Below are positions 1,399 through 44,340 of a stretch of DNA of 64,000 nt, piece by piece. Position 1 is the stretch's first letter; each line of letters starts with the position of its first letter. The notes beneath the pieces are model-generated. The model saw only the letters and a list, made by a program, of their open reading frames with translations. It was not told the origin of the DNA and searched no databases. The translations under genes were made by a program, and so were the position numbers. The DNA comes from an uncultured Gammaproteobacteria bacterium. Its GTDB lineage: Bacteria; Patescibacteriota; Patescibacteriia; 2-12-FULL-60-25. The DNA is taken from NCBI GenBank assembly GCA_964345995.1, contig CAYFST010000001.1, positions 269-64,268 of the forward strand, written 5' to 3'.

Positions 1399-1435
1399 AT
1401 TAGTATAAATAATAACAAAAGCGGTGCTTATTATC

Positions 1436-15203: not shown

Positions 15204-15219
15204 CCACAACCTACTACAT

Positions 15220-15260: not shown

Positions 15261-15462
15261 GACTTTGAGTTACAAGATCTTGTGGATTTGTATGATTTTA
15301 ATTGATGAATAATCTAATAATATTTGTAATCAAAGTACTCTAGCGTCACTCATGCTTATTTGTTGTTTTGCCATATCGATATTGACGTTTAGAGCAAATT
15401 ATGCTAAAAAATTGTATTCTTAAAGAAAAGAAAAATGGCTCTTTTGACAAACGGAGGGCAAG

Positions 15463-30914: not shown

Positions 30915-30921
30915 AGTATTA

Positions 30922-32154
30922 TTATTCTGCTAAAGTTGCGCTTTTAATCATATAATTGAATAAAGCTGCAAAGTCCATGGTTTTAGCTCCGTTTGCGGTG
31001 TATTCTAATGTGTATACAGTATCTTTTATGAGCAACCAAGCTGTTAGCATATCTTTGGAATAAACAACTTGAAATCCGTTCATACTATTGCCCGGTATAT
31101 AGTCGGTAGCTGAACTTCCTTGATTATTATTTATAAGCCAGTTTTGCAAATCCGATACTTCATTATTTTTTTGCATTGAGATGTTGATACTGGCGGGCGT
31201 ACCCGTATAAATTATAACTGACCCACTTGGCCCGGGATTTCGACGCCAAGCTTGTGGCAGAGCGAATATCGCTAAACCGATTTTTTCTGTTTTCATGGCG
31301 TCTGAGACCGCAAGAGTTGCATTCGCTAAAGCAGGATCATAGCCGTTTTCCACTTCACTACCATCCTCGAAACCGTCAGCATCCGAATCGACGACATTGG
31401 GGTCCGAACCAAGCAATAACTCTTCGGAATTGGTTAAGCCATCAGCATCAGTATCCGTGCCCGGTTGCATTTTAACCATTTCATCCTCATCACTTTCCAT
31501 TATTTCCATTTCCGGAGCATCAGGATCTTGCATTTCGAATTCATTTTCAGGCTGAACCGGCTCCATAGAATCCATAGCCGAACCATCGGTTTGCGCATTC
31601 ATCATTTCTTCCATCATTCCTACGCTTGTTACTTGTGCCTGTTGTTGCTCCGCTTGGGCTTTTAACAATTCCATCGAAGTCTGAGAGGCGGCCAGCTTGT
31701 CCTCGTCAGGCTTGGGTATAGGCGATTTCACAGGGGCTTCGTCGGATGGTTCGCTTGTGGCCGGTACCGTGGTTGGTGCAACGGATCGGCCAGAATCGGT
31801 AATCAATGAGCCATCTTCTGCGGCAAAATAATTTTGGTAAACAAAATATGTAGCTACTCCCAAGCCGATTACGAGTAGCGGAATTCCGATGCCCAGTACT
31901 ATTTTCCAGGGAAAGCTACTTTTGGGCGCAGCCGGGCTGGCGTTTGGCGCAGGTGTTTGCGGAGTTGGTGGCGCAGGTTCGTTAATATCCGCAAATATAT
32001 CCTCGGGCTCTTTGGTGCCGGATACGTTAATACCCCCTTCTATCTTTTGCGGTTGAGGTGCGGTCGCGTGAGACTTTGCGGGAGCTTGAGACGGCTGTGT
32101 GTTGCCGGAACCTTGATTGGGTTCTACGGGGAGATTATCGGGGGCGTCGAACAT
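30922..32154 (-). CDS. paralogous single-pass membrane protein: Pro-rich N-terminus, TM, Met/Glu-rich acidic segment, thrombospondin-type-3-like repeats, C-terminal beta domain
   Basis: TM IVLGIGIPLLVIGLGVATYFVY. DTDADGLTNSEE...DSDADGFEDGSE at 31333-31458. The C-terminal domain aligns with that of the 474-aa neighbour (..TAWLLIKDTVYTLEY.. vs ..TYIAWNGKVFILSYE..). Confidence 0.7.
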   Translation of the reverse strand: MFDAPDNLPVEPNQGSGNTQPSQAPAKSHATAPQPQKIEGGINVSGTKEPEDIFADINEPAPPTPQTPAPNASPAAPKSSFPWKIVLGIGIPLLVIGLGVATYFVYQNYFAAEDGSLITDSGRSVAPTTVPATSEPSDEAPVKSPIPKPDEDKLAASQTSMELLKAQAEQQQAQVTSVGMMEEMMNAQTDGSAMDSMEPVQPENEFEMQDPDAPEMEIMESDEDEMVKMQPGTDTDADGLTNSEELLLGSDPNVVDSDADGFEDGSEVENGYDPALANATLAVSDAMKTEKIGLAIFALPQAWRRNPGPSGSVIIYTGTPASINISMQKNNEVSDLQNWLINNNQGSSATDYIPGNSMNGFQVVYSKDMLTAWLLIKDTVYTLEYTANGAKTMDFAALFNYMIKSATLAE

Positions 32155-32289: not shown

Positions 32290-32550
32290 TTATTGAAGTC
32301 CGGGAGGGAGGGTTGGCGGAAGAAGCTCGGATTCGCTGGGTTCTAAAGTTGTAGTGGCTCCGGATTGTTGGCCCGGGGGCGTATAATCGGACGGCGGGTC
32401 GTAGCGATTTTCTTGAGCCGGTGAGTTGTTTGCGCCAAATGGCTGATATATGGGACTGTTCGGGTTGGAACTGCGCAAATACCATACCACCCCGGCGATG
32501 GCTAAGACAGCAAGACCCGCGAAAAAGATTATGTAATAAATATATTTCAT
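32290..32550 (-). CDS. small single-pass membrane protein with Pro-rich tail
   Basis: MKYIYYIIFFAGLAVLAIAGVVWYL followed by P/S/Q/G-rich sequence. The ATG lies 1 nt after the giant gene stop. Confidence 0.5.
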   Translation of the reverse strand: MKYIYYIIFFAGLAVLAIAGVVWYLRSSNPNSPIYQPFGANNSPAQENRYDPPSDYTPPGQQSGATTTLEPSESELLPPTLPPGLQ

Positions 32551-32551
32551 A

Positions 32552-35500
32552 TTACCAGTTTATTACGTTAAAGCGTTGGATATACTCGGGATAGTTATTA
32601 TATATTTTCCTGTGATCAGCACCCGAAATGCCATATACAGACCAAAAAGTAGCACAGAATTCTTGGCGTTCAGAATCTTTTAACTTAGTATTATTATCAA
32701 AAATACTTATGATATCTTTTACCCCTGGTTCAAAAGGGCCTGTACAAATATGTTTTGCAGGTTCATCGTCAATGTATTTACAAGAGGCACCAAAATTATT
32801 CCAGCATGCCATGCCTTCGGGTCTGATTGCGGTTTGAGCATTGTTGTATTCATCAGCTGTATTGGGAAGCAGATATCCGCCCAAAACATTTTGTGAGTAA
32901 TCAAGGTCAGCCGCGCCTTGCCAATCATTATGGACAGTCACTTGACCTTGCGGTGAGACGCTGGCCATGTGCCAAAATGGCTTTTTAAAATCTTCCCGTG
33001 TCGAAATATTGTCTTGAGATTGGAAGGTTTGGATAGTATCAGCCGTGGCCAGATAGATTTGAGTCGCGGTTTTAGCCCAATATTCGCGCCAAGACAGGAT
33101 TTTGTTGGGATACTCGTCGATAGATGCATAGGCTTGCGGTTTATTGCCCGCTACCCAGGCCTCCACTTCCGTATCTGATAATGGCGCGGTAAAAAAGCTT
33201 TCTTTCATAAACGGTTCGTAACCAGGTGCCGCGAAATAGAATTCAATAGGTTTATCAAGACCTGATATTGGGGAATCCAAATCGTTTGGATCGGCATAGC
33301 GGAACAAGGCTGTGGCTTGGGCATTGTGTATTTCCAGATGGCAACGAGATAGATCCATAGGTTGTACCAATGGTGATTGCGAGCACACATCCTTGGGGTT
33401 GCAGAAATTCTGACAATTGGGTTGCAGGTTCAAATCCCACTCAGCAAACAATTTCCAAATTCCCAAACCTTGAGTACAGTTATCCATACAAGCATTGACT
33501 CCGATTAACGGACAATTATTATTTTTGGCGCGATCCCATTTAAGCGTGGGGCAGATTAGAGCCGTATGCGGTGCCTGACGCAGATTCAAGACGCCTTGAT
33601 TCAGCCAATTGTAATCACGGGCGCAGGTAAGTCTTTGTGCTGAGTTCTCGGCGTGAACCTGGTCGGTGCCTCTATTTGTATATGAGCAAAGATCGCCGCC
33701 GAATTGATCTACCGTTGTTTGGTACAAATCACCACCTCCCACGCCGGAATTTAACATGTTACGCGCAAGACGTGCTTGGTTATTGGGCCAAATTACGTGC
33801 GGGGTCCACATTTTATCCCAAGGGAACCAGAGATTGACTATTTGATCTTGACAACCCGGGCTATTGGGATTCTCTTTGCAGGCTTTGAGTTTTTGCCAGC
33901 CTTGGCTATCGAGCAGAGTTGGGCGACCGTAGCTTAAATAACCTTCGCCCCGGGCCGGGCGTGGGTAAATGAAGATCATGCCTAGCATTTCTTGAAAGGG
34001 GAAGCTCTCGGCCGAGAATTCATCAGTGGTGAAAGACCAGTAACCGCCACGCTCGCCTTCGTCGATATCCATATCGAATTCATGCGCGATTGAGGGCAGG
34101 CAGCCGTCAGCCGGACGTTCGTTGACCGGTTCGGTGCAGATGTTATTATCGAACATGTCGATGGTTAACTTGTATTTATCGCATTCACCGCGCGAGGCCA
34201 GATTATTGAATTCGAAGCGGCCATTTTCATCGGTTAGTTTTTGGTCTACGACTATGTTGCGGTATTGCAAGGATACACGCGCGCTTGGTACGGGCTGGAG
34301 CCACACGCGATCCATGATATAGCCATGAATTGTGGCATCGCCGATTTCATCCGAACAGCGACCGCAACCACCGGGTTTACAATCGGGCGTGCAAATTGGC
34401 TTATCATTAGATTCGTAAACCGTTCTAAAACCGTTTTGGGCTCCGATTTGATTGACACAGCGATAAAATGTTGTTTTGGACGGCCATTCGTTTTGTGGTA
34501 ACCAATATGACTCCAACGTAAGGATGTTTGTGTTTTTTACTGGATGAAGTGCCGTTGTAGATTCCGTTCCCATTAAGCCGCAGTCTATAAGAATTTGATT
34601 TAATAGTCTATTATTATTGACATCGTTAATTATCTTTTCCGCTTTCAATACACAGCTCTTGAATGATGGGTCATCGCAAGTGTAATTTTTAGCCGCTGTA
34701 GAAGATGTTATTTCAATAGCACGATTAAGCTGGCTGTTAAGCGCGAAATCATAACCTAATTGTTCGCAAGTTAAATCGGTTGGATTATCGCCCTCAGCCA
34801 TGATTTGGCAGGGCGGGTTTTCGCAAACTTCGCCAATATATCCTTTAACGGCAATTGTGTTGGCATTTGCGGTGGTGACCTCTGAGCCTAGGACGTAGTT
34901 AGCAGGGTCATAATCGGCCGGCTCAACAGGGATATTGCCGTCACACTGCTCGCCCGGTTCTTTGATGCCGTTACCGCAATAACCGCCGGCTTTAGCCAGG
35001 ATTTTGCACTGAAGCGAGCAATCGTTGCAGGTTGAGCCGTATTGGGCTTGGCAGACGGATTTACCGTTGTTCACACCATGGTCGCATTCTTCGACGTTAG
35101 TGTAGAGGTGGCCGTCGCCGCAGACGTTTAACTTACAGGTGGGCAGGCAAGCTTTGTTGTTGCCATTTTCAAAACCATCATCGCATTCTTCACCGGGATT
35201 CAAGATACCGTCTCCGCAATAATTGGCAATTATGCATTTACTCCATGTAGACTCCCATTTACATTGATTGGTAACACCCGGTTTTTTACAACGTCGAATA
35301 TGTTCTGTTGCGTAATCGCGACAAATGCCTTGAGAAATATTATTGGAACATTGCGCGTCTGTGTCACAATTTATGCCAAGATTAAGAGCTACACACTCCT
35401 GTCCGTCGCCACAACCTGAATCTGTTTGACAGGCTTGATAGGTTGATACGATGTTTGGATTATTGGCAAATAACGTGCCTGTAATTAATGATTTGCGTTC

Positions 35501-38500
35501 GGCCGAACTAAGGCAAACGCTGGCCGCGGTTGCGCAACGAGTTTGAGTAAAGCCTTCGCAGGATTGATAATTCAGTCCTTTTTTGTTGGGTATTGGATTA
35601 ATTATACAGCTGGTACCGGGGCAATCTTCGTCGGTTCTGCAAAGTTTTTGAAATCCTGTATTTTGATCACAGATGCCAGTGGCTGGTCCGCAAAGATAAT
35701 CTCCGCAATCGTCGTTGGATACGCAGGGCTGTTCTTTGTATGGACCTTCGGAACAGATGGCTGTGATTGTGCGCAGTACCTCACCGTCGCATTGTTCGGG
35801 TCCGTTGGTTTTACCATCACCGCAGTAAGGCGCTTTACCAGTACAGCCAAGGCCGCAGGTATCGGCAAGAGGCGTAGTGCCGTAACACATGGCCGTATCG
35901 GCGCAGTAAGCGCCGTTACCGTTGGCAGGGTCGGAGCCGGCGTCGCAATCCTCACCCGGACTTAGTTGGCCGTCGCCGCAGTATTTATCGTAACCCGTGC
36001 AATCGAGGTTGCAATGGCCGTATGTCCCGTTTAACACGCCGTCATCACATGTTTCTTGAATTTCACAAGTTTGACCAGCTTCACAATCAGCGTCGCTTGT
36101 GCAGGCTCCGTCTGTGATATTGCCCCCGCAAAGCCCATCCAGGCGACCATTACCGCAAGCAACTTTGGGCCGGCAAACCGATAGAATAGGATCTTGAGCC
36201 CAACGTTGGCAATCTTCGCAAACAGTGAGCATAAAACCATCGGCCTCGCCCGGTGCGGAATAATCACAAGTTTGGATTTTGGTTTCGCCAAGTTCGCAGA
36301 ATTCTTCGGCCGAACAAGTTGAGCCCGGGCATTCGGAATCATCCGCACATTGGTTACCGGCATTAACACCGCCGGCGCAGACCAGGCCTTTGATGCCGTC
36401 GCCGCAAATACCACTTATACCCATAACATCGTTATTGCAGATATTTTTGAATTTATAACGGAAACCGGCCGGTTGGCAGGAATTTACCGGGGCGGGCTCG
36501 GTACAAGATGCGGCCTTCGGATCTAAACAAGGCTTACAATCAGCATCAACCGTACACCAGCGTCCGTCGCTGATCGGGTTGTCGGTACGGCAATATTTAA
36601 GCTCCACATTGCCAATATTAACGGCGCTCCACCATTTTTCTGCAAAAAGAGGATTGCCTTGCGGATCGGTTACAAAGCTCATGGGCGGGACTTCGAAATT
36701 GGCAGCCAGTTCATAACGACGGCCGGCGTCAAAGGAACGGTATTTATAGAACCTGGAGGGAGCAAACGGTTCTTCGCTGCCATAAGGATCGTAGTTTGTT
36801 TGTGGCTGTGAGCCGTCGGCTTCCATATACGGGCACTTGAATTGGAGTTCCTCCGGATTCCAGCAAGTTTGCGTGTTATAACCCTCCTGCTCTTCGCAGA
36901 AATAGCCTTCGTTACAGTCTTCATCGGTTGCGCATGGCACGGTGCTTTGCGTGGCCGGGTTATCAACCGGCTTACAAAGTCCGCAAGTAATGAGACGATT
37001 AACAGGATCTAAGGGCATGGTGATGCCTAATTGATTGCCGAGTTGTTCTTGCCATGAGGGCCAACGCGAATTGGTGCGGGATTTTTGAAAAGTACCCTCG
37101 GATAAAACAGGGTAACGTTGGTTGGCGCTGTAATAATCATCCATGGCTTTACGAATGGATTTAAAATCGGCCAAGCGCTTGATATCGTGTTGTAATTTGT
37201 ATTTGAAGCTGGCGCAACGCAATTTGTCATCAGGAGAATTGTCAATTTTAAGACAATCCCAATCAGAAACACAAGTAACCGGAGCCGCCATAGCAGGATT
37301 GAGATAAATCTCACCCTGGCTTACGCCGGTTTGACCGCCTTTAACACAAACATTGCTGTTGTCAAAATTAAAATTAATGTTAAAGGCTACGTTATTGACC
37401 AATTGTTCAAAAATTTCTTGTGTAATGGTTGAAGCGCCAATGTTATGTGAAATTACCAGAATATTAGGATAGATGTTTCGTTCGATACCGGTTGTGTTAG
37501 GGAAGCTGATGTAAACCGTACCGCCATCGCGCACAGCCGGGTAGCCATCGATTTCGAACTGCTCGGGAGAACCCAAGAAGCCCTGCCTGCGATACCATTC
37601 AAGCGGGGTATCCATGTAAGGATTGCGGTATACGCGGATACCGATACCATCTGATTTATAAGCCGGGACATTGAAAGTAAATAGATATTGCCTCAAAATA
37701 CCTGAATCGATGTCGGACTGGGATAAGGGAATCAAGCTGGGATTTAGCGCCGGCATTAAACCATTTTCATGGTCGCGACAATACATGGTTTGAAAATTGA
37801 AAAAAGGTCCGTTGGGATAAGTTGCGTAAAGATCATCATAGAGCTGGCTGAGCCACAGCTCATTCGGGTTGCTAACAATGCTTTGATCGGCATCGCGAAA
37901 GGGATCAAAGCGTTCACCTTGGCGCGGAGGCCACGGGTATTCGCAAATAAAGACGGTAACCGGTTTTGAAGCGCTTACGAGACTGCCCTTTGTATTACCA
38001 TTACCCAAAGTGTCTTCAGTTATTTTTAAAGAAGCGAAAACCCAAGTATAACCGCTTTTATCTGATACTCTGACGGCGGATTGTGTTGTTTCTTGGCTGT
38101 AACTGGCTTGCTCATCATTGGTTTGAGCCAACTCGGGATTGTTGATTACCCATGGTTCCCATTGCCAATTATATAAACCGGGTATAGGGCTGATGGCCTG
38201 AGCTTGACCGTTTTGCACCGATTTGGCGCTGGCTTGCAATATATGCTCTTCGAAAGCTTGGTCAAAATAGAAAGGGCTGTAATCAACAGTCGGATCAATA
38301 GGTCCGTTATCTTGTATATTAATGGTATTTATGCGACAGATATCGGAACCGGTTTCAAACCACCAGGAAAATTCCCAGTCGTTACTATTGGCAATTTCAC
38401 CTCCCACATCGGCTATAGCAGTGACGTTGACCGCAGTACGTATACCTTGTTTGATATTGTCATCGTCTGCGGTAAGCAAATCGTCATCGCCTTCGAAGCG

Positions 38501-41500
38501 GACGATGTAGCGGGTATTGGGCTCAAGAACCTCGCTGAGTCGATAGACAAAAGCTTTGGTAGATGTTCCTTTGGTGGATAAATTACCGGGAACGGACTGC
38601 GTGCAATAAATCGCACGGGTCGGAGTGCCCGAAATCCAGGTGATTAAGGTGTTCCATCCATATACAATCCAATTCCAAAATCCTTTGGGTTCTTCCAATG
38701 TGGCCAGCGGTTCTGTTCCATCCGGGCAAGCTGTGCCACTAATTTCTTGGGCAATGGTAAAATTGCCGGCCACACTTTGCACATCCATGGGATGTTCAAA
38801 ATAAGCTTCAACTAAGATGTTACGGCAGAATCCTTGGCCGGAATTATCACCCTGCGGAAATGGCGCTTGGTTTTCATCCAGCGCGGGGCGGGGCGCGCAA
38901 CAACCGTTTTCATCTAAACCAAATCCAGAATCGCACTGGGATTCATCAGTTTTGCCACAACCGACTCCGTAGACAGCGGCGCCATCAACTTGATCATAAA
39001 CGCAGCTTAAGTCGGTGGACATTACTTGGGTCTCGGGATCAGGAGTGCCGGTACCAGGCTCTATGACGGCCAATTGTATTGGATCTGTCAGACCATCTCC
39101 CTCGCCAGCAGTGGCTCCACTTACTGTTAAGCCTGTGGTATGAAGAATACTTTCGCAAAGTTCGCCAGTTTCCAGAATTCCGTTGCCACAAAAACTGGGG
39201 TTTACGTATTTCCAAGATGAGCCCTCCAACAGGCAATTGGGTGAGCAGTGATCGCCGGCGATATTGTTTCCATCATCGCATTCTTCGCCATCTTCGAGCA
39301 CATTATTACCGCAACAATTGGGGAATGATGGATCGGGGCAAGCTTGAGAACCCAACTTAACGCATCTTTGATTATCGCAATAAGCGGGAACAGGCGAACC
39401 GGCCGCGGGAGCTTCGCAATTTTCACCGGCTTCCAAAATACCATTACCGCAAATGGACGCGACTTCCGGAGAGGATCCTGTGTGCAGGCAATTATTGGAA
39501 CAGCCTCGGCCGTTTTGATTCCCTAAATCACAATCTTCGCCTTCGGCGATATCTCCGTTGCCACAAGTGGTGCCGGGCATGGAGGTGGCTCCCAGGTTTT
39601 TGCAACCCGCTGAACAGCCGTTGTAATCACGAACTTCGCAAACACCGCCCGCATCATAACAATCATCAAATATTTGCTGAGTATTACACAGTTGACCCTC
39701 TAGACCGGAGGCTGTACTGGTTGTATCAAAACATCTGGTACCGGGGTCGCACATTTCACCTTCGGCATATTCGACAGAGTTATTACCGCAATTACCGCCC
39801 GGGACTTCTTTTAATAGACACGTGACCGGGTCACAAAGCCCGCCGCCGTCGCATTGTTCGCCAGCTCCGGATTCTATAGGTAAAAGTACGCAAGGTTGAC
39901 CGGTTTTCGCTAAACCGCCTTGGCAGAAATTATCGTCTACGGTTTCCACTATGCCGTTGCCGCAAAGAGCGGTTTGTCCAAAAATACCGTCAGAGCCTTT
40001 GGCCAAACAATTATTGGAACAGCCGTGAGGCAAAGACGCGCCCGTGTCGATAGCCGAAAAGAGGAAAGACGCAACTTGCTGATTAGGATCGTCAAATTCC
40101 CAATTGAAAGCTTGGTTGGTTTTTAGCATTTGACCATCGGCGCGACAATCGTCGGGAGCACTGATGACCTGAGCACTGAACAATTCCCTGTCGCCGATTT
40201 TTTCTTCGATTCTGCGAGTCGGCGTGATGTTTACGGCATCCGGTTGGCACTCTTCGTTTTCCAAGCGCGTGCGGAATTCCCATGTTTCAGATTGGTTCAT
40301 GGGCATACCGTGCTTGCTTTTGATCGGGTTGCCCGCGCCACCGTTTAGCCTAACATGGTAATAAGTAGCGCGCTTTAAATTTTGCACGGGTTCGATACGA
40401 ATGAAGCTATAAGGTGTGTTTTGATACTGAAGCAGAGGCGGGGTTTCGGGCAAAGTTACATTAATCGGAATTTCGACAAGATCTTCGGGCAGGCAATTTT
40501 CGGTGGCACATTCATAAACTTTGACATTTTGATAATAGTCGCCGGCTTTAATAGGATCGGCAATTAAAACCGAATTTTGACCGGCGGGCGGAGGATCGGC
40601 CCAAAGCGATGTATTCATTTGCGCCCAAATGTAGATATTTGAGCAAGCCGTATCGCAATCCGGGAATTTATCGACAACATGCGGAGTTATAAATTGAATA
40701 TAGAGATCAGCGAGGCCTGTAATTTTAGAGACATCTTCTTGAGCGCTAACGCTAACCGGAGGGTTCATGGCTTCTGAATCACCGGCGACCACTGTTTGAC
40801 TGCAAGCATTGGGAGTTGGCGAATTTTTAACCCAAGCTTTGGTTAGAGGATCTGCGGACCAATTAAATTCAAAGCCTTCGCATTTCATCAAGTTACAAAC
40901 AGCGTCTTTGGTGGCCGGTAACGCCTCGAATTCTTGCTCTTCATTACCCTCAACATAAGCTTTCCAAGGATTCACGTAAACATCGCCGATTTCACAAGGT
41001 CCGGTATCGGAACGTGTGCGAAAGCGGTAGCAATAACCGAGACCGGGTTCGGGACAATTGGTATTTTCATCCATGGTTGTTCCGTAGATCAAATCCTCGG
41101 AGCGGATTTCACTGGATACAAAGACGTAATAAGTTGTTTCAGGTTCGAGCGCGGCAGTGGGCTCGAAGGATACATAAGGATCGCCCCCGGAAATCATGGT
41201 GGGCTCCGTAGTTGACAGTTCTTCCAGCTCATCGCAGGGGTCGGCGCCTTGGCCTGTGCATTTTTGTAAGCTAAATAGAGTATTGGGACTTTGCTCGGGA
41301 GGCCAATTGATGGGAATATCAAAAAGAACTCCGATACGCGGGACCGGATCGATGCAGACTTGGTCACCGCCGGGATGATTTTGCCAAGGAGTCGGTGAAG
41401 GTAATTGATTGCCGGCGCCTGATACATCACAAAATTCGACAACGCGCGGAGTTTTGGGGACCACACCGGTGGAAAACTGCCACGAATACTGAGCTTTAAA

Positions 41501-43963
41501 GGAAACGGCTTGGCATTCTCCGTCGGCGCAGGTGCCATTAGGGCAACAGGTTTGACCGGAATCACAAACGGAAGCGTCATCGCGGCAATCGGCAACGGCA
41601 AATTGCATTGAGTTGGTATCTACTCCGGAGATACTCGCGAAAACCGGACCCGTAACCGCTTGATTGGGAACGGTAACATCGATCTGATTATCTTGCCAAG
41701 CTTGTATGTCCGCGCTCTGTCCGCTCGTAAAGACGACTTCATTACCGGGCGAAGATTGGCCTAAATTTTCACCATAGAGGGAAACATAGGAACTCGCGGG
41801 ACCGGCACTGGGATTGATGGTACATAATCCCGGGCCGGCTTGACCGTCTGTATAAGTAAAGTCAACTTGATTTGAGTTTTCAGAATCCGACCGTTCGATG
41901 TAGATGGAAAATTGAGCCGGTTTAACCACATTTGCATCCACGGAAGGAACTTTGATGACTATATTGTTATTTTTCCACCAACCTTGAGCACAACCCTCAC
42001 TAAAAGCCGAATCACCCACATACGTTTTATCCGCCGCTTTATCATAGAAATAAACTACGCCGGGGTTATTACCAAAGCGTTCACCTACAATGGACAGCAT
42101 TTGGCCACGTGGCGCTTGACCCGGATCCACATAAGTAATTACAGGCGCGGGTTGAGGCGCGTCTTTGCTTTCAATCGTAAAAGGAACCTTGTTTGATTGC
42201 AGGCCGTTTTCATGAGCGACCCAAACCGGATAAAGGCCGGGGTTGACTATGGGGGCTAAGAAGTCGATAGATGTATCACTCCAGTTTTGGCCGGCAACAC
42301 TCATGTTGCCAAAATTAATAGTACCAGCACTAGACCCCAGGTTAGCGCCATCCAATGTGACGGAAATTCCGGGTTCGCCCTGATTAGGATTGGCGGCGCA
42401 AAGGCCCGGTACCTGTTCGTCGGTTAACGTAAAGGTGAATTGTGGACCCAAAGAATCATCCGTTTGGTCGGTTAAATTACTATTGGCGTTTGTAAGTTTA
42501 ATGGGGCCGGTAGCAGCTCCTTGTGGGACTTCGACTAAAACGTAATTATCAGACCAAGTTGTGGCGCCGGCGGCCACGCATGCTTGAGGGGCCGATGCTG
42601 TAACCTCGGGAGGGCCTAAAAACGAAACTTGACCGGTATCGCCAAAATTATCACCCCATATGGATACATATGTACCTTCATCACCTGAAAGCGGTTTAAC
42701 ATCCGTAATTACAGGTTGCTCAACGCAGACTCCGTTTATGCAAAGTCCGGAAGCGCATTGACTATTAGTTTGACACGCGCCACCCGAACAAGCCAGACAA
42801 TCGGCGCCGCCACAATCCATGCCGGTTTCATCATAATTTTGCAAGTTATCAAAGCAATGCTCAGCCAATACCACAACATCAACCGATGCCGAACCTGTAT
42901 TTGTGTCTAAATCAGTGCCTAAAACATTGATTGTGTACGATTGTTTAGGTGTCTTGCCTACCGTATCCCAGAAACCTGATGATTCGAATGTCTGCGGACT
43001 AGGAGAGCTCAAAGGCCCGTCACTATGAAATAATTGACCACCTTCTTCCCATTCCATACCCGAGACACCGATATCATCTTTAGCTCGCGCCAAAACCTCT
43101 ACAGCGGTGTCGACAGGTACGCTTTTTCCATTGTATAGATTTAAGATATTGATATCAGGCGCTTGGCTGTCGACAGTATCGCCTGATGTAAAGGTAAAAT
43201 CACAACTGGGATAAAAGCCACCACAACGCAATTGCTGATTGGCTATGGAGCGTAGATCGGTTGTAATGCTTACTTGGTATTGGGTGTCAAACGCAAAACA
43301 AGTTTTTTGCGGTGCGCCGGGGCATGGGTCGGTAGGCGTAAAGATAACGCGTTTTGGGTTTCCCGGATCAACCTGCCAAGAACCGCTAACTTGCGGTGCT
43401 ATGGAAAATGCATCAAGCGTGGCATCGTCCACCTCTCTATTGAATAAAACACGGATAATCAAATTAGCATTGCCGACAGAACCTTCGGGGCTTTTGGCCA
43501 TTACTCGAAAAACATCACCGCCACCGGGGCCAAAACCTCCGCCACCGGAACCTCCGCCACCGGAACCTCCGCCACCGCCCCCCGTGCCCGTGGCCGCATT
43601 AATCAGCGAGTTGATGATGAATGAAGCTATAGCCCAGGAAAACAAGATGATAATTACTCCGATAATACCATTTCTAAGCCAAGCTTTAGCTTTATCTACC
43701 TTGGCGGCGTCTCCGCCGGCAGTCATCCACAAAAAACCGGCATAGAGTATGATGACGAGAAGCACAACACCCAAAAAGCCGAGCACTATGTTTATAAGGC
43801 GCGCGGCAATGATGCGCGGGTCAGTATCAGGTAGTTGCACGGTTTGACCCACCGCATTGAGTCCGGTATCCATCTGAGCAAAAACAGGCTGTGCAAAAGC
43901 CAGACTTGTTAATTGCAAGACTGTAAGAAATACTATAGTGATGAGTAATTTGCGGATTTTCAT
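32552..43963 (-). CDS. giant (3,803 aa) secreted/membrane-anchored Cys-rich multidomain protein with N-terminal VirB2/TrbC-like pilin module
   Basis: Uninterrupted 11,412-nt ORF with ATG at 43961-43963. I counted the residues in blocks of ten and reached exactly 3,803. The domain calls are listed as separate features. Confidence 0.85.
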   Translation of the reverse strand: MKIRKLLITIVFLTVLQLTSLAFAQPVFAQMDTGLNAVGQTVQLPDTDPRIIAARLINIVLGFLGVVLLVIILYAGFLWMTAGGDAAKVDKAKAWLRNGIIGVIIILFSWAIASFIINSLINAATGTGGGGGGSGGGGSGGGGFGPGGGDVFRVMAKSPEGSVGNANLIIRVLFNREVDDATLDAFSIAPQVSGSWQVDPGNPKRVIFTPTDPCPGAPQKTCFAFDTQYQVSITTDLRSIANQQLRCGGFYPSCDFTFTSGDTVDSQAPDINILNLYNGKSVPVDTAVEVLARAKDDIGVSGMEWEEGGQLFHSDGPLSSPSPQTFESSGFWDTVGKTPKQSYTINVLGTDLDTNTGSASVDVVVLAEHCFDNLQNYDETGMDCGGADCLACSGGACQTNSQCASGLCINGVCVEQPVITDVKPLSGDEGTYVSIWGDNFGDTGQVSFLGPPEVTASAPQACVAAGATTWSDNYVLVEVPQGAATGPIKLTNANSNLTDQTDDSLGPQFTFTLTDEQVPGLCAANPNQGEPGISVTLDGANLGSSAGTINFGNMSVAGQNWSDTSIDFLAPIVNPGLYPVWVAHENGLQSNKVPFTIESKDAPQPAPVITYVDPGQAPRGQMLSIVGERFGNNPGVVYFYDKAADKTYVGDSAFSEGCAQGWWKNNNIVIKVPSVDANVVKPAQFSIYIERSDSENSNQVDFTYTDGQAGPGLCTINPSAGPASSYVSLYGENLGQSSPGNEVVFTSGQSADIQAWQDNQIDVTVPNQAVTGPVFASISGVDTNSMQFAVADCRDDASVCDSGQTCCPNGTCADGECQAVSFKAQYSWQFSTGVVPKTPRVVEFCDVSGAGNQLPSPTPWQNHPGGDQVCIDPVPRIGVLFDIPINWPPEQSPNTLFSLQKCTGQGADPCDELEELSTTEPTMISGGDPYVSFEPTAALEPETTYYVFVSSEIRSEDLIYGTTMDENTNCPEPGLGYCYRFRTRSDTGPCEIGDVYVNPWKAYVEGNEEQEFEALPATKDAVCNLMKCEGFEFNWSADPLTKAWVKNSPTPNACSQTVVAGDSEAMNPPVSVSAQEDVSKITGLADLYIQFITPHVVDKFPDCDTACSNIYIWAQMNTSLWADPPPAGQNSVLIADPIKAGDYYQNVKVYECATENCLPEDLVEIPINVTLPETPPLLQYQNTPYSFIRIEPVQNLKRATYYHVRLNGGAGNPIKSKHGMPMNQSETWEFRTRLENEECQPDAVNITPTRRIEEKIGDRELFSAQVISAPDDCRADGQMLKTNQAFNWEFDDPNQQVASFLFSAIDTGASLPHGCSNNCLAKGSDGIFGQTALCGNGIVETVDDNFCQGGLAKTGQPCVLLPIESGAGEQCDGGGLCDPVTCLLKEVPGGNCGNNSVEYAEGEMCDPGTRCFDTTSTASGLEGQLCNTQQIFDDCYDAGGVCEVRDYNGCSAGCKNLGATSMPGTTCGNGDIAEGEDCDLGNQNGRGCSNNCLHTGSSPEVASICGNGILEAGENCEAPAAGSPVPAYCDNQRCVKLGSQACPDPSFPNCCGNNVLEDGEECDDGNNIAGDHCSPNCLLEGSSWKYVNPSFCGNGILETGELCESILHTTGLTVSGATAGEGDGLTDPIQLAVIEPGTGTPDPETQVMSTDLSCVYDQVDGAAVYGVGCGKTDESQCDSGFGLDENGCCAPRPALDENQAPFPQGDNSGQGFCRNILVEAYFEHPMDVQSVAGNFTIAQEISGTACPDGTEPLATLEEPKGFWNWIVYGWNTLITWISGTPTRAIYCTQSVPGNLSTKGTSTKAFVYRLSEVLEPNTRYIVRFEGDDDLLTADDDNIKQGIRTAVNVTAIADVGGEIANSNDWEFSWWFETGSDICRINTINIQDNGPIDPTVDYSPFYFDQAFEEHILQASAKSVQNGQAQAISPIPGLYNWQWEPWVINNPELAQTNDEQASYSQETTQSAVRVSDKSGYTWVFASLKITEDTLGNGNTKGSLVSASKPVTVFICEYPWPPRQGERFDPFRDADQSIVSNPNELWLSQLYDDLYATYPNGPFFNFQTMYCRDHENGLMPALNPSLIPLSQSDIDSGILRQYLFTFNVPAYKSDGIGIRVYRNPYMDTPLEWYRRQGFLGSPEQFEIDGYPAVRDGGTVYISFPNTTGIERNIYPNILVISHNIGASTITQEIFEQLVNNVAFNINFNFDNSNVCVKGGQTGVSQGEIYLNPAMAAPVTCVSDWDCLKIDNSPDDKLRCASFKYKLQHDIKRLADFKSIRKAMDDYYSANQRYPVLSEGTFQKSRTNSRWPSWQEQLGNQLGITMPLDPVNRLITCGLCKPVDNPATQSTVPCATDEDCNEGYFCEEQEGYNTQTCWNPEELQFKCPYMEADGSQPQTNYDPYGSEEPFAPSRFYKYRSFDAGRRYELAANFEVPPMSFVTDPQGNPLFAEKWWSAVNIGNVELKYCRTDNPISDGRWCTVDADCKPCLDPKAASCTEPAPVNSCQPAGFRYKFKNICNNDVMGISGICGDGIKGLVCAGGVNAGNQCADDSECPGSTCSAEEFCELGETKIQTCDYSAPGEADGFMLTVCEDCQRWAQDPILSVCRPKVACGNGRLDGLCGGNITDGACTSDADCEAGQTCEIQETCDDGVLNGTYGHCNLDCTGYDKYCGDGQLSPGEDCDAGSDPANGNGAYCADTAMCYGTTPLADTCGLGCTGKAPYCGDGKTNGPEQCDGEVLRTITAICSEGPYKEQPCVSNDDCGDYLCGPATGICDQNTGFQKLCRTDEDCPGTSCIINPIPNKKGLNYQSCEGFTQTRCATAASVCLSSAERKSLITGTLFANNPNIVSTYQACQTDSGCGDGQECVALNLGINCDTDAQCSNNISQGICRDYATEHIRRCKKPGVTNQCKWESTWSKCIIANYCGDGILNPGEECDDGFENGNNKACLPTCKLNVCGDGHLYTNVEECDHGVNNGKSVCQAQYGSTCNDCSLQCKILAKAGGYCGNGIKEPGEQCDGNIPVEPADYDPANYVLGSEVTTANANTIAVKGYIGEVCENPPCQIMAEGDNPTDLTCEQLGYDFALNSQLNRAIEITSSTAAKNYTCDDPSFKSCVLKAEKIINDVNNNRLLNQILIDCGLMGTESTTALHPVKNTNILTLESYWLPQNEWPSKTTFYRCVNQIGAQNGFRTVYESNDKPICTPDCKPGGCGRCSDEIGDATIHGYIMDRVWLQPVPSARVSLQYRNIVVDQKLTDENGRFEFNNLASRGECDKYKLTIDMFDNNICTEPVNERPADGCLPSIAHEFDMDIDEGERGGYWSFTTDEFSAESFPFQEMLGMIFIYPRPARGEGYLSYGRPTLLDSQGWQKLKACKENPNSPGCQDQIVNLWFPWDKMWTPHVIWPNNQARLARNMLNSGVGGGDLYQTTVDQFGGDLCSYTNRGTDQVHAENSAQRLTCARDYNWLNQGVLNLRQAPHTALICPTLKWDRAKNNNCPLIGVNACMDNCTQGLGIWKLFAEWDLNLQPNCQNFCNPKDVCSQSPLVQPMDLSRCHLEIHNAQATALFRYADPNDLDSPISGLDKPIEFYFAAPGYEPFMKESFFTAPLSDTEVEAWVAGNKPQAYASIDEYPNKILSWREYWAKTATQIYLATADTIQTFQSQDNISTREDFKKPFWHMASVSPQGQVTVHNDWQGAADLDYSQNVLGGYLLPNTADEYNNAQTAIRPEGMACWNNFGASCKYIDDEPAKHICTGPFEPGVKDIISIFDNNTKLKDSERQEFCATFWSVYGISGADHRKIYNNYPEYIQRFNVINW
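34178..34366 (-). other. carboxypeptidase-regulatory-like (transthyretin-fold) domain candidate, aa 3200-3262
   Basis: IHGYIMDRVWLQPVPSARVSLQYRNIVVDQKLTDENGRFEFNNL matches the G.V........A.V.L.......TD..G.F.F..L pattern. Confidence 0.45.
34934..36586 (-). repeat. Cys-rich repeat cluster II, aa 2460-3010
   Basis: Examples: CGDGIKGLVC, CGNGRLDGLC, ETCDDGVLNGTYGHCNLDCTGYDKYCGDGQLSPGEDCD, YCGDGKTNGPEQCDG, YCGDGILNPGEECDDGFENGNNKACLPTCKLNVCGDGHLYTNVEECDHGVNNGKSVC, YCGNGIKEPGEQCDG. Confidence 0.7.
36998..37198 (-). other. embedded pseudopilin/type IV pilin-like globular-head segment without the N-terminal hydrophobic helix, aa 2256-2322
   Basis: KLQHDIKRLADFKSIRKAMDDYYSANQRYPVLSEG......W......L..QLGITMPLDPVN. 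This follows the RD..R..D...I..AL..YY...G.YP......LP.DP pattern of T2SS-G/T4P pilin heads. Confidence 0.5.
39149..40024 (-). repeat. Cys-rich repeat cluster I (CGNG[IV].E.GE.CD...C...C type), aa 1314-1605
   Basis: Examples: CGNGIVETVDDNFC, CGNGDIAEGEDCDLGNQNGRGCSNNCLHTG, CGNGILEAGENCE, CGNNVLEDGEECDDGNNIAGDHCSPNCLLEG, CGNGILETGELCE. These resemble the Myxococcus cysteine-rich repeat / DUF4215 family (name recalled from memory). Confidence 0.7.
41594..42718 (-). repeat. four IPT/TIG-like Ig repeats, aa 416-790
   Basis: Recurring P(V/L)I(T)..P..G..G..V.I.G.NFG....V.F pattern. Examples: PVITDVKPLSGDEGTYVSIWGDNFG, PVITYVDPGQAPRGQMLSIVGERFG, CTINPSAGPASSYVSLYGENLG. Confidence 0.55.
43178..43516 (-). 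other. Ig-like (SbsA/Big-type) domain candidate, aa 150-262
   Basis: VFRVMAKSPEGSVGNANLIIRVLFNREVDDATLDAFSIAPQVSGSWQVDPGNPKRVIFTP resembles bacterial surface-layer Ig modules. The 645-aa neighbour carries similar modules. Confidence 0.4.
43517..43591 (-). repeat. Gly/Ser linker (TGTGGGGGGSGGGGSGGGGFGPGGG) encoded partly by 15-nt tandem repeats
   Basis: The plus strand reads cctccgccaccggaa twice, then cctccgccaccgcc (43536-43579). Confidence 0.85.
43592..43828 (-). other. VirB2/TrbC-like (T4SS-pilin-like) two-helix hairpin, giant protein aa 46-124
   Basis: DPRIIAARLINIVLGFLGVVLLVIILYAGFLWMTAGGDAAKVDKAKAWLRNGIIGVIIILFSWAIASFIINSLINA. Confidence 0.7.
43874..43963 (-). other. signal peptide of the giant protein
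   Basis: MKIRKLLITIVFLTVLQLTSLAFAQPVFAQ. Confidence 0.6.
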
Positions 43964-43965
43964 GA

Positions 43966-44340
43966 TTATTTTAAAGCATCGATGATTGAATCAATCGAAA
44001 AAGTGGTTATAGCCCAAGCCGAAAGCACGATAATTAAGCCGATAATGGCATTACCGATAGCGCGTTTAGCATAGTCCGTTTTTTCTTTATTGCCACCTGA
44101 TATCATAAAGAGAAAACCGGAGTGAAGGATCAGAATCACGAATATAAGTGACAGGAAACCAATAATAACATTGATGATTTCGGCCACGATCAGCCTAGGG
44201 TCTTTTTCGGCGAGATTTAACCATTCAGACAGAGCTTCTTGCCCGATATCCAATGTGCCGGCATGCGCGGGCAATACAAAAGCAACCACAGCAACTAAGC
44301 TGAGTACGAATACTGTATTTTTTTTTGGATAGTATTTCAT
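43966..44340 (-). CDS. stand-alone VirB2/TrbC-like (T4SS-pilin-like) protein, 124 aa
   Basis: Signal peptide VFVLSLVAVVAFVLPAHA, then DPRLIVAEIINVIIGFLSLIFVILILHSGFLFMISGGNKEKTDYAKRAIGNAIIGLIIVLSAWAITTFSIDSII. Start moved to the ATG at 44338-44340, 4 nt after the upstream stop. Its stop lies 2 nt before the giant gene ATG. Confidence 0.75.
   Translation of the reverse strand: MKYYPKKNTVFVLSLVAVVAFVLPAHAGTLDIGQEALSEWLNLAEKDPRLIVAEIINVIIGFLSLIFVILILHSGFLFMISGGNKEKTDYAKRAIGNAIIGLIIVLSAWAITTFSIDSIIDALK

What the first reader, a model, noticed from the sequence alone, without database searches (positions are those of the whole stretch)
32552..43963. 3,803-aa multidomain Cys-rich surface protein encoded by a single 11.4-kb ORF
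Seen: an uninterrupted ORF. The domain order I could read is as follows. Signal peptide, pilin-like hairpin (43592-43828), then a GGGGS-type linker. An Ig-like module, a short Cys knot (DCGGADCLACSGGACQTNSQCASGLCINGVC), then four IPT/TIG-like repeats (41594-42718). About 500 aa of further Ig-like modules, then Cys-repeat cluster I (39149-40024). About 650 aa with no recognisable domain, then the pseudopilin-like segment (36998-37198). Cys-repeat cluster II (34934-36586), then a transthyretin-fold-like segment (34178-34366). Last comes a 540-aa Trp/Cys/Asn/Gln-rich C-terminal region (32555-34177) with no feature I recognise. Inference: if the genome is about 1 Mb, as the gene content suggests, this one gene is over 1% of it. 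That argues for strong selection, and attachment to a host or partner cell surface is the obvious hypothesis. The unassigned stretches (roughly aa 1700-2250 and 3263-3803) are where a new fold or activity could hide.
Basis: partly seen in the sequence, partly recalled or inferred. Interest (0 to 1): 0.75.

Follow-up and report, generated by a model that had tools for sequence, protein, structure and literature searches.

The report
Giant pilin-anchored surface protein of Uhrbacteria
This is a real 3,803-residue gene for a membrane-anchored, cysteine-rich surface fibre that is conserved in at least 80 species of the tiny Uhrbacteria, and it probably lets the cell reach and hold a partner cell, though that role is untested and its central domain and fast-evolving tip match no known structure.

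Summary
The 11.4-kb ORF (32552-43963, minus strand) is real and intact. It is not an assembly artefact: it has no long DNA repeats, and intact orthologous ORFs of 2,930-3,857 aa occur in more than 50 independent MAGs.

It belongs to a single-copy, end-to-end colinear family in Candidatus Uhrbacteria (Patescibacteria/CPR). The gene order is fixed: hisS-yqeY-[pilin+Big_5 paralog]-(small pilin)-GIANT-(small TM ORF)-TSP3 proteins-ybeY-dgkA-ftsA.

The N-terminal 150 aa are a genuine VirB2/TrbC-like "T4SS_pilin" hairpin, 41-64% identical to stand-alone 120-145-aa CPR pilins. The rest is extracellular: four Big_5-like modules, Big_7, four TIG domains, two clusters of myxo-type Cys repeats and a transthyretin-like domain. 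137 of 187 Cys are conserved.

The "pseudopilin-like" segment is not supported statistically. Part of unassigned region 1 is Big_5-like. The rest is a strongly conserved orphan alpha/beta domain with only weak PsbP/DcrB-like fold matches. The C-terminal ~500 aa folds with moderate confidence, matches nothing in PDB or BFVD, and evolves fastest.

Best reading: a lineage-core tether or adhesin with a conserved stalk and a variable tip. That function is inferred, not shown.

The parts
43874..43963 (-). Sec-type signal peptide (aa 1-30, ...SLAFAQPVFAQ)
   Evidence: Read from the sequence, plus the hydropathy scan. The cleavage site is inferred.
43592..43828 (-). VirB2/TrbC-like T4SS_pilin hairpin: two transmembrane helices with a basic loop (aa 46-124)
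   Evidence: PF18895 at 30.4 bits, cutoff 26.6. It hits 14 of 14 relatives, best 8.6e-12. 299 stand-alone CPR pilins match, with E down to 1e-34. It is 43-44% identical to the hairpins of the two upstream genes. It is the best conserved part of the family.
43514..43591 (-). Gly/Ser-rich flexible linker (aa 125-150)
   Evidence: Read from the sequence. A 15-nt DNA repeat lies here. The linker is conserved in the family consensus.
43178..43513 (-). Big_5 Ig-like module 1 (aa 151-262)
   Evidence: Pfam PF13205, 4.5e-11.
42860..43168 (-). Big_7-like Ig module (aa 266-368)
   Evidence: The Pfam hit is weak here, 0.0019. 12 of 14 relatives hit, best 1.2e-11.
42719..42859 (-). Short Cys-knot DCGG..C..C (aa 369-415)
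   Evidence: Read from the sequence. All its Cys are invariant in the family.
41594..42718 (-). Four IPT/TIG domains (aa 416-790)
   Evidence: PF01833 in 4 stretches, 7e-25. hhalign TIG1 against TIG2 gives 97% probability.
40979..41470 (-). Big_5-like module 2 (aa 832-995)
   Evidence: hhalign gives 94% probability to Big_5 module 1 and 99.1% to aa 1093-1262.
40178..40687 (-). Big_5-like module 3 (aa 1093-1262)
   Evidence: hhalign, 98-99% probability. There is also a weak Pfam Big_5 hit.
39134..39937 (-). Cys-repeat cluster I, myxo-type CGNG..GE.CD repeats (aa 1343-1610)
   Evidence: TIGR02232 and the motif scan.
38273..38896 (-).
   Evidence: hhalign, 96.6-98.1% probability to modules 2 and 3. 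Pfam Big_5 hits the equivalent place in P0019.
37364..37945 (-). Conserved orphan alpha/beta domain (aa 2007-2200; CENPWP...GILRQYLFTF...DGIGIRI...FNIN)
   Evidence: The AF2 model of aa 1990-2430 has mean pLDDT 84.6, mostly 85-97 here. Foldseek gives only weak PsbP/DcrB/Tsi3/BT_1490-like hits: E of 2.9e-3 or worse, TM-score normalised to the target of 0.20-0.41 for those hits. The family profile finds nothing in PDB or Pfam. Identity to distant orthologs is 40-52%.
36674..37246 (-). Helix-led conserved domain with a Cys-rich insertion (aa 2240-2430).
   Evidence: The model has a 29-residue helix followed by strands. PulG is the only PDB hit but at E=1.5, and it is lost after splicing out the insertion. 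No pilin appears in the Foldseek top 50.
34934..36586 (-). Cys-repeat cluster II (aa 2460-3010)
   Evidence: TIGR02232 and DUF4215, plus the motif scan.
34094..34366 (-). Transthyretin/CarboxypepD_reg-like beta-sandwich (aa 3200-3290)
   Evidence: The Pfam hit is weak here. 9 of 14 relatives hit. pLDDT is ~90-97. Foldseek gives transthyretin/HIUase/CnaB matches.
32555..34093 (-). C-terminal orphan region (aa 3291-3803): 16 Cys, Trp-rich, ends in ...NW. It is the fastest evolving part.
   Evidence: The AF2 model of aa 3190-3803 has pTM 0.77. In it, aa ~3209-3369 are at pLDDT ~80-97, aa ~3450-3690 are mostly at 64-96, and the last ~110 aa are below 50. No PDB or BFVD match extends beyond the transthyretin-like part. 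There is no PDB sequence hit. Only 5 representative clusters share the whole region. Identity to close orthologs is 33-49%, against 52-70% overall.
44345..46282 (-). Upstream paralog: T4SS_pilin hairpin + Gly linker + Big_5 (645 aa)
   Evidence: Pfam. The hairpin is 44% identical to the giant's. It is syntenic in 66 loci.
43966..44340 (-). Bare T4SS_pilin gene (124 aa). Its stop lies 2 nt before the giant's ATG.
   Evidence: Pfam. It is 43% identical to the giant's hairpin. It is present only in the closer clade.
32290..32550 (-). Small ORF (86 aa) with a transmembrane helix and a Pro-rich tail. It starts 1 nt after the giant's stop.
   Evidence: Called on the source contig and visible in the sequence. 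BLAST detects it in only 6 loci plus L002.
29490..32154 (-). Two single-pass membrane proteins with TSP3 repeats, one also with fn3 (410 and 474 aa). They always follow the giant gene.
   Evidence: Pfam. Syntenic in 69-70 loci.

Best explanation
The gene encodes a lineage-core surface appendage of Candidatus Uhrbacteria.

Proposed mechanism:
- After Sec export and signal-peptide cleavage, the N-terminal VirB2-like hairpin (two transmembrane helices with a basic cytoplasmic loop) holds the protein in the cell's own membrane.
- A flexible Gly-rich linker then leads into about 3,650 extracellular residues. These form a long, mostly rigid stalk of four Big_5-like modules, Big_7, four TIG domains and other beta modules. 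Two blocks of disulfide-stapled Cys repeats and two conserved globular domains (aa 2007-2200 and 2240-2430) are set into it.
- The stalk ends in a transthyretin-like domain and a fast-evolving, Cys- and Trp-rich tip of about 500 aa.
- The stalk projects the tip far from the tiny cell. The tip, possibly with the conserved central domains, binds a structure on a partner or host cell or on a surface.

Shown: the ORF, its topology features, the domain identities, the pilin-module homology, family-wide colinearity and synteny, and the conservation gradient.

Inferred: disulfide formation, the extended shape, surface exposure, and binding to a partner.
For: - The ORF is intact and has no collapsible repeats.
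- Orthologs are intact in more than 50 MAGs. Nineteen full-length representatives align colinearly from residue 1 to ~3340 at 32-56% identity. 137 of 187 Cys are at least 80% conserved.
- Synteny is strict in 63-70 loci.
- N-terminal module: PF18895, homology to stand-alone CPR pilins, and a paralogous hairpin in the two upstream genes. There is no other hydrophobic segment in the protein.
- Extracellular module types.
- Conservation gradient: the hairpin is 72-89% identical among close orthologs, the last 300 aa only 33-49%. Tip length varies from 195 to 549 aa.
- Context from the literature: cultivated Patescibacteria are obligate epibionts and need adhesins and T4SS pilins (PMC10633639). 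Giant membrane proteins were proposed as host-attachment devices in the CPR bacterium Vampirococcus (PMC8080830).
Against: - There is no experimental or expression evidence.
- No known carbohydrate-binding or adhesin tip domain was detected.
- End-to-end conservation and fixed synteny next to ybeY-dgkA-ftsA-ftsZ are unusual for adhesins. They could instead point to a structural envelope role.
- No disulfide-forming enzyme (DsbA/VKOR) was found in the 64-kb window.
- The lifestyle of Uhrbacteria (host-bound or not) is not established.
Confidence: 0.5

Rival explanations
1. The protein is a modular T4SS-type pilin. The VirB2-like hairpin is not just an anchor. It polymerises with the neighbouring small pilin (124 aa) and the 645-aa pilin+Big_5 paralog into a conjugative-type pilus. 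The giant subunit is then a rare or tip subunit that displays its 3,650-aa cargo at the end of the filament.
For: - The hairpin is a bona fide member of the CPR VirB2-like family, 41-64% identical to free-standing 120-145-aa pilins.
- Three consecutive genes carry it.
- The closest stand-alone relatives sit in arrays of six PF18895 genes of graded length, 130-395 aa.
- VirB2 arrays are widespread in Patescibacteria (PMC12102498), and such predicted pilin subunits are essential in Southlakia epibionticum (PMC10633639).
- The hairpin is the best conserved part of the protein, which is what a polymerisation interface would predict.
Against: - No VirB4, VirB6 or other T4SS gene lies in the 64-kb window or within 10 kb of the two pilin arrays I inspected.
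- The bare 124-aa pilin is missing from most orthologous loci.
- To my knowledge, no VirB2-type pilin with a large cargo has been shown to assemble into a pilus.
Confidence: 0.2
2. The protein is a structural envelope component. It acts as a conserved scaffold, spacer or coat of the Uhrbacteria cell surface (S-layer-like or linked to division), not as a partner-binding device.
For: - It is a single-copy core gene with end-to-end colinear conservation.
- It sits in a fixed position in a co-directional cluster running into ybeY-dgkA-ftsA and, in the window, ftsZ, in 63-70 loci.
- It is always accompanied by other membrane-anchored TSP3/fn3 proteins.
Against: - No S-layer homology or other lattice-forming domain was detected.
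- The protein is very long and modular, with a hypervariable distal end, which fits an exposed interaction surface better.
- Synteny with division genes may only reflect low rearrangement rates in these small genomes.
Confidence: 0.15
3. The protein is a contact-dependent effector of the polymorphic-toxin type. A conserved filament delivers a variable C-terminal toxin or enzyme domain, and the small downstream ORF acts as an immunity or helper protein.
For: - The C-terminus is variable on a conserved body.
- A small, fast-diverging ORF starts 1 nt after the stop.
Against: - The tips are not swapped cassettes. 51 of 53 fall into one similarity cluster.
- There is no toxin or enzyme family hit in 14 members, and no conserved catalytic-looking triad among the invariant residues.
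- The tip has 16 Cys. I infer these form disulfides, which is untypical for translocated toxins.
- The downstream ORF is a transmembrane helix with a Pro-rich tail, not a globular immunity protein.
Confidence: 0.05
4. The ORF is an artefact: a pseudogene, or a misassembled or chimeric ORF.
For: - It comes from a metagenome assembly.
- In a few related loci (L058, L064, L067) the ORF is split in two.
Against: - The reading frame is uninterrupted, and intact orthologs occur in more than 50 independent assemblies.
- It is colinear with 19 full-length representatives.
- It has no long internal DNA repeats.
- It is tightly packed in an operon-like cluster.
Confidence: 0.01

Closest known systems
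VirB2/TrbC-like pilins of Patescibacteria (Pfam PF18895 T4SS_pilin, PF04956; NCBIfam NF045849 Mbov_0395/MMCAP2_0565 pilin-like proteins)
   Same: Both have a signal peptide and a two-helix hydrophobic hairpin with a basic loop. Sequence homology is clear, with E down to 1e-34. Both occur in tandem arrays of pilin-module genes (PMC12102498).
   Different: Those pilins are 120-145 aa. This protein carries ~3,650 extra residues after the hairpin. It is not next to virB4 within the window. Assembly into a filament is untested.
Modular type IV pilins with grafted adhesive modules, such as Streptococcus sanguinis PilB/PilC (recalled from my own knowledge, not checked here)
   Same: The principle is the same: a pilin module fused to a functional extracellular module.
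   Different: It is a different pilus class, with a class III signal peptide and a single alpha1-N helix instead of a VirB2 hairpin. The cargo is tens to hundreds of residues, not thousands.
Giant Ig-repeat adhesins of bacteria, such as the RTX adhesins LapA, SiiE and MpIBP, and staphylococcal Ebh (recalled from my own knowledge)
   Same: They are also megadalton-scale, built of long runs of Ig-like modules, and have a ligand-binding region at the distal end.
   Different: They are built from many near-identical repeats, are Cys-poor, use T1SS/RTX or YSIRK/C-terminal anchors, and vary between strains. This protein has heterogeneous modules, 187 Cys, an N-terminal hairpin anchor, no RTX domain, and colinear conservation across a whole lineage.
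Myxococcus-type cysteine-rich repeat proteins (TIGR02232 / DUF4215)
   Same: The two Cys clusters are made of this repeat.
   Different: The repeat makes up only ~20% of the protein. The function of these repeats is unknown in any organism.
Giant membrane proteins of the CPR predator Vampirococcus lugosii (PMC8080830) and giant genes of Omnitrophota (bioRxiv 10.1101/2023.11.21.568195)
   Same: These are also very large predicted surface proteins in ultra-small, host-dependent bacteria, and they were proposed to mediate attachment.
   Different: Their domain content differs (WD40, PKD, integrin, saposin and others). No homology with them was tested or claimed here. Those papers do not describe a VirB2-hairpin anchor.

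Membership tests
T4SS_pilin / VirB2-TrbC-like pilins (PF18895, PF04956) | Profile match above the curated cutoff, and homology to recognised members | tested here: met
   The N-terminal segment scores 30.4 bits against a cutoff of 26.6; scanning the whole protein gives 26.4 bits. 14 of 14 relatives hit, best 8.6e-12. 299 stand-alone pilins match with E down to 1e-34.
T4SS_pilin / VirB2-TrbC-like pilins (PF18895, PF04956) | Signal peptide followed by two hydrophobic helices joined by a short basic loop | tested here: met
   The hydropathy scan finds helices at aa ~50-80 and ~95-120. The loop is TAGGDAAKVDKAKAWLRNG.
T4SS_pilin / VirB2-TrbC-like pilins (PF18895, PF04956) | Small protein (about 70-150 aa) consisting of the hairpin only | tested here: not met
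   The protein has 3,803 aa, and the hairpin is 3% of it.
T4SS_pilin / VirB2-TrbC-like pilins (PF18895, PF04956) | Encoded with T4SS machinery (VirB4, VirB6 and others) and polymerised into a pilus | tested here: inconclusive
   No T4SS gene was found among the window ORFs I scanned. The rest of the genome was not available. Polymerisation cannot be tested in silico here.
IPT/TIG and Big_5/Big_7 bacterial Ig-like domains | Pfam profile matches above the cutoff | tested here: met
   TIG has 4 stretches at 7e-25. Big_5 scores 4.5e-11. Big_7 hits 12 of 14 relatives. Three further Big_5-like modules were found by hhalign.
Myxo-type cysteine-rich repeat (TIGR02232 / DUF4215) | Repeat profile match above the cutoff, in multiple copies | tested here: met
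   TIGR02232 scores 33 bits against 20.8, in 6 stretches. DUF4215 hits 7 of 14 relatives, best 7.2e-11.
Type II secretion pseudopilin GspG / type IV pilin fold (for aa 2240-2430) | Class III signal peptide and hydrophobic alpha1-N | tested here: not met
   The segment is internal, and there is no hydrophobic stretch beyond aa 120.
Type II secretion pseudopilin GspG / type IV pilin fold (for aa 2240-2430) | Significant sequence-profile or fold match to pilins or pseudopilins | tested here: inconclusive
   There is no T2SSG or N_methyl Pfam hit in 15 proteins. PulG (5wda) is the sole PDB hit but at E=1.5, and it is lost when the insertion is spliced out. There is no pilin in the Foldseek top 50. 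The model does have a 29-residue helix followed by strands.
Transthyretin / CarboxypepD_reg-like beta-sandwich (aa 3200-3290) | Profile or fold match | tested here: met
   The score is below the cutoff in this protein, 17.6-20.4 bits against 32.3. However, 9 of 14 relatives hit, best 8.9e-8. Foldseek gives transthyretin/HIUase matches with probability of 0.98 or higher.
PsbP / DcrB / Mog1-like alpha-beta sandwich (aa 2007-2200) | Fold match with a convincing score | tested here: inconclusive
   Foldseek gives E of 2.9e-3 to 9e-3 and a TM-score normalised to the target of 0.25-0.41. There is no sequence-profile hit in PDB or Pfam.
RTX / T1SS giant adhesins | C-terminal RTX nonapeptide repeats and near-identical tandem Ig repeats | tested here: not met
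   No RTX or HemolysinCabind hit was found in this protein or in 14 relatives. There are no long DNA repeats.
Polymorphic toxins (CdiA/Rhs-like) | Unrelated C-terminal cassettes swapped on a conserved body, each with a cognate immunity gene | tested here: not met
   51 of 53 tips form one similarity cluster. No toxin family hit was found.

The most novel reading that the evidence does not exclude
The VirB2-type hairpin is a working pilin module. On this reading the giant protein would be, to my knowledge, the first 'modular T4SS pilin': a subunit that is built into, or caps, a conjugative-type filament. In Uhrbacteria that filament would have been turned into a permanent tethering organelle. 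The orphan C-terminal domain would be a new receptor-binding fold, and the conserved central alpha/beta domain a new assembly or interaction module.
Probability: 0.2. Interest if true: 0.75.

Novelty: new variant of a known kind. Interest (0 to 1): 0.5.

Why it matters
How ultra-small CPR bacteria recognise and hold their partners is largely unknown outside Saccharibacteria. This family offers a concrete, conserved and easily recognised candidate for a whole lineage, Uhrbacteria. The gene takes about 1% of the genome and is kept intact and in the same place in at least 80 species.

It also shows that the abundant CPR 'T4SS pilin' hairpin is used as an N-terminal module on proteins ranging from 124 to 3,857 aa. 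That changes how the VirB2 arrays of Patescibacteria should be read. Finally, it marks two domains (aa 2007-2200 and aa ~3290-3803) as targets for structure determination, because they have no detectable relatives of known structure.

Tried and rejected
- A full-length word-index homolog search timed out.
- Segment searches with that tool found only 2-3 fragments and missed every full-length relative. The exhaustive HMMER search then found them.
- phmmer of the middle and C-terminal regions against PDB found nothing.
- Pseudopilin test: I made a family profile of aa 2240-2345 and a version with the Cys-rich insertion spliced out. The GspG hit did not become significant and disappeared, so I do not file the segment as a pseudopilin.
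- A profile of aa 2007-2200 against PDB and Pfam gave only chance-level hits to Kelch and others.
- Foldseek of the C-terminal model against PDB and BFVD matched only the transthyretin-like part.
- The polymorphic-toxin idea is not supported, because the tips form one homologous cluster.
- I found no DsbA/VKOR and no T4SS machinery in the window. This says nothing about the rest of the genome.
- Literature searches found no description of this family.
- hhalign did not link the three smaller beta modules (aa 996-1092, 1263-1342, 1898-2006) to each other or to any other segment compared.
Full report
**1. The observation.**
The window holds one uninterrupted minus-strand ORF, 32552-43963, with an ATG start and 3,803 codons. 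The same gene was called on the source contig, JGI metagenome 3300012002, Ga0153774_1000096, 75.6 kb. By my own arithmetic, a stop-free run of this length has a chance of about (61/64)^3803, roughly 1e-79. The product has 187 Cys (4.9%). Its only hydrophobic segments are an N-terminal signal-like stretch and two helices at aa ~50-80 and ~95-120. At the DNA level there are only short repeat families (25-32 nt, 63-84% identical) and the 15-nt Gly-linker repeat. Collapse of repeats during assembly is therefore not a concern.

**2. Domain map.**
- T4SS_pilin (aa 55-116)
- Big_5 (aa 166-245)
- weak Big_7 (aa 269-347)
- four TIG stretches (aa 416-790)
- six myxo-type Cys repeats (TIGR02232), plus DUF4215
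- a weak CarboxypepD_reg match at aa 3211-3267

Scanning 14 full-length relatives strengthens the weak calls:
- Big_7 hits 12 of 14
- CarboxypepD_reg hits 9 of 14 (best 8.9e-8)
- T4SS_pilin hits 14 of 14 (best 8.6e-12)
- TrbC hits 1 of 14

Profile-profile comparison of family sub-alignments shows that aa 832-995, 1093-1262 and 1690-1897 are homologous to each other (96.6-99.1% probability). aa 832-995 also matches the Pfam-validated Big_5 module at aa 150-262 with 94% probability, and aa 1690-1897 does so more weakly, at 57%. The protein therefore has four Big_5-like modules.

**3. The N-terminus is a true CPR pilin module.**
The first 150 residues hit 299 proteins with E down to 1e-34 in a 5.8-billion-sequence database. 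The 120 listed are nearly all stand-alone 95-250-aa proteins with PF18895, often also PF04956. Some are named pilin or MMCAP2_0565-family pilin-like conjugal transfer protein, and they come from Patescibacteria.

The two genes directly upstream carry the same hairpin. The 124-aa bare pilin is 43% identical (3e-30), and the 645-aa pilin+Big_5 protein is 44% identical (2e-27). Two of the stand-alone relatives I looked up sit in arrays of six PF18895 genes of graded size, 130-395 aa and 131-319 aa, with no virB4 within 10 kb. Such VirB2 arrays have been described across Patescibacteria (PMC12102498). The predicted T4SS pilin subunits are essential in Southlakia epibionticum (PMC10633639). Neither paper mentions giant fusions.

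**4. A conserved family, not a one-off.**
The word-index homolog search found only fragments. These were named Candidatus Uhrbacteria. An exhaustive HMMER search with a C-terminal profile found 72 representatives, about 20 of them 3,175-3,850 aa long.

Local BLAST shows that 19 of these align with the query as essentially one colinear alignment from residue 1 to about 3340:
- P0006: 56% identity over aa 1-3729
- P0019: 41%
- the others: 32-37%

P0006 is NCBI MFZ6015822.1, 'IPT/TIG domain-containing protein [Patescibacteria group bacterium]', on a 741-kb contig. Other members are named 'Ig-like domain-containing' or 'cysteine-rich repeat protein'.

In a 20-sequence alignment, 137 of 187 Cys are at least 80% conserved. 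The hairpin region is the best conserved, at 60% identity. The last ~450 aa are the worst, at 4-19% identity and low occupancy.

A scan of one genome per GTDB species with the central domain returned 90 confirmed loci, of which 80 were kept. Nearly all are labelled Candidatus Uhrbacteria or Patescibacteria group. They include complete chromosomes of 1.08 and 1.19 Mb (lineage).

More than 50 loci have intact stop-to-stop ORFs of 2,930-3,857 aa.

**5. Fixed gene order.**
The gene order is hisS - yqeY - pilin+Big_5 paralog - (bare pilin, close clade only) - giant - (small TM ORF) - one to three TSP3 proteins - TSP3/fn3 protein - ybeY - dgkA - ftsA. It holds in 63-70 loci. In the window the genes are 1-4 nt apart around the giant gene. 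The rest of the window is housekeeping: ftsZ, gyrB, tRNA synthetases, glycolysis, murA-like, ftsW. I found no T4SS machinery and no DsbA/VKOR.

This is a vertically inherited core gene, which is not what a typical accessory adhesin looks like.

**6. The unassigned regions.**

*Central part, aa 1990-2430.* With a 31-sequence alignment, AlphaFold2 gave mean pLDDT 84.6 and pTM 0.82.
- aa 2007-2200 is a compact alpha/beta domain, mostly at pLDDT 85-97. Against PDB it has only weak matches to BT_1490, PsbP, DcrB, Tsi3 and TplEi. The best E is 2.9e-3, the TM-score normalised to the target is 0.20-0.41, and no hit reaches E of 1e-3 or better.
- A family profile of this domain finds nothing meaningful in PDB sequences or Pfam.
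- It is nevertheless one of the best conserved parts of the protein, at 40-52% identity to distant orthologs.

*The 'pseudopilin-like' segment, aa 2240-2430.*
- It begins with a 29-residue helix followed by strands, with a Cys-rich insertion.
- A profile of aa 2240-2345 returned PulG/GspG as its only PDB hit, aligned over alpha1-C and the LPxDP motif. The E-value was 1.5.
- After I spliced out the insertion the hit disappeared.
- No pilin appears in the Foldseek top 50, and no pilin family hits any of 15 proteins.
- I therefore treat the resemblance as unproven.

*C-terminal part, aa 3190-3803.* With 22 sequences, AlphaFold2 gave mean pLDDT 72.5 and pTM 0.77.
- aa ~3209-3369 are at pLDDT ~80-97.
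- aa ~3450-3690 are mostly at 64-96.
- The last ~110 residues are below 50.
- Foldseek against PDB and BFVD matched only the transthyretin/CarboxypepD_reg/CnaB-like sandwich at the start of the model. The best E-values were 2.9e-3 and 1.5e-3.
- Nothing matched the remaining ~450 residues. This is compatible with a new fold, but multi-domain queries and a shallow alignment limit that conclusion.

**7. Evolutionary pattern.**
Seven close orthologs are 52-70% identical overall. Against these:
- the hairpin is 72-89% identical
- the central domains are 57-81% identical
- aa 3010-3190 are 38-49% identical
- aa 3500-3803 are 33-49% identical

Across 57 orthologs the region after aa 3340 varies from 195 to 549 aa in those that extend past it. 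Even so, 51 of 53 tips fall into a single similarity cluster, so the tip diverges in place and is not swapped as a cassette. Fifteen of them end in ...NW. Only five representative clusters share the query's whole tip.

**8. Interpretation.**
The anatomy is as follows:
- a Sec signal
- a VirB2-type hairpin
- a flexible Gly linker
- about 25-30 extracellular modules, with roughly 90 potential disulfides
- a conserved membrane-proximal end and a fast-evolving distal end

This is best explained by a long surface fibre that is anchored in the cell's own membrane and presents its tip to the outside. In a lineage thought to depend on other cells, the most likely role is to tether or recognise a partner.

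The role is an inference. It is in line with what was proposed for the giant membrane proteins of Vampirococcus (PMC8080830) and with the need for adhesins in Saccharibacteria (PMC10633639).

The rivals are:
- Modular-pilin reading: the hairpin polymerises with the neighbouring pilins. It cannot be separated from simple anchoring with these data and is the most novel possibility.
- Structural envelope role: suggested by the core-gene behaviour and the neighbourhood of division genes.
- Polymorphic toxin: disfavoured.
- Artefact: excluded for practical purposes.

**9. Novelty and score.**
Members of the family are in public databases under generic names. I found no paper that describes them.

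Giant surface proteins in host-dependent ultra-small bacteria are a known theme, so this is a new variant of a known kind. What sets it apart:
- the VirB2-type pilin module as anchor
- lineage-wide colinear conservation and synteny
- the heavy Cys content
- two domains without detectable relatives of known structure

Most of the protein is ordinary adhesin-type modules and the function remains inferred. It still gives a clear, testable candidate for cell-cell contact in a large uncultivated lineage.

Noticed in passing
window 29490-32154 (-): Two paralogous single-pass membrane proteins (410 and 474 aa). Each has a disordered cytoplasmic N-terminus, one transmembrane helix, TSP3 calcium-binding repeats (one also has fn3) and a C-terminal globular domain. 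They follow the giant gene in 69-70 related loci, sometimes as three genes. They may form a surface complex with it.
   Followed up: partly
window 32290-32550 (-): An 86-aa ORF with one transmembrane helix and a Pro-rich tail starts 1 nt after the giant gene's stop. BLAST recognises it only in the closest clade (6 loci plus L002). It diverges about as fast as the giant's tip.
   Followed up: partly
L083 2682-6405; L084 6622-10402: Two of the stand-alone relatives of the giant's hairpin lie in arrays of six consecutive PF18895 pilin genes of graded size (395, 240, 134, 137, 134, 130 aa and 319, 262, 197, 131, 149, 133 aa). No T4SS ATPase lies within 10 kb.
   Followed up: partly
L058, L064, L067 (also L004, L033, L077): In a few related genomes the orthologous ORF is split or shortened, for example 1,586 + 2,068 aa in L058. 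This could be frameshift errors in those assemblies or real gene splits.
   Followed up: no
loci L004, L007, L019-L022 and many others: Many TPA MAG records titled 'uncultured Gammaproteobacteria bacterium' carry this Uhrbacteria-type locus with full synteny. The organism label in those records is probably a placeholder or an error.
   Followed up: no
window 9957-11531 and 11636-13231 (-): Two adjacent full-length paralogs of cofactor-independent phosphoglycerate mutase (iPGM_N + Metalloenzyme). This is unusual duplication for a ~1 Mb genome.
   Followed up: no
window 13446-16917 (+): This is the highest-GC stretch of the window (52.7% at 14001-16000, against 40-49% elsewhere). It holds two plus-strand ORFs (585 and 484 aa) with no Pfam family. 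The first gives only weak coiled-coil-type matches.
   Followed up: partly
L002 1-245: On the contig that carries the C-terminal homolog P0002, the reading frame has two stop codons within the first 35 nt. The preceding ~50 residues also differ from the family. This may be a contig-end error or a truncated copy.
   Followed up: no
method note (against 35, 38): The word-index homolog search returned none of the ~20 full-length (more than 3,000 aa) relatives, including one 56% identical. The exhaustive HMMER search found them all. Very long proteins seem to be under-reported by the first tool.
   Followed up: no
window 505-1437 (-) and 1493-2275 (-): A Peptidase_C39-like protein lies next to a cyclophilin that carries a ~120-aa N-terminal extension. 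Neither was studied further.
   Followed up: no
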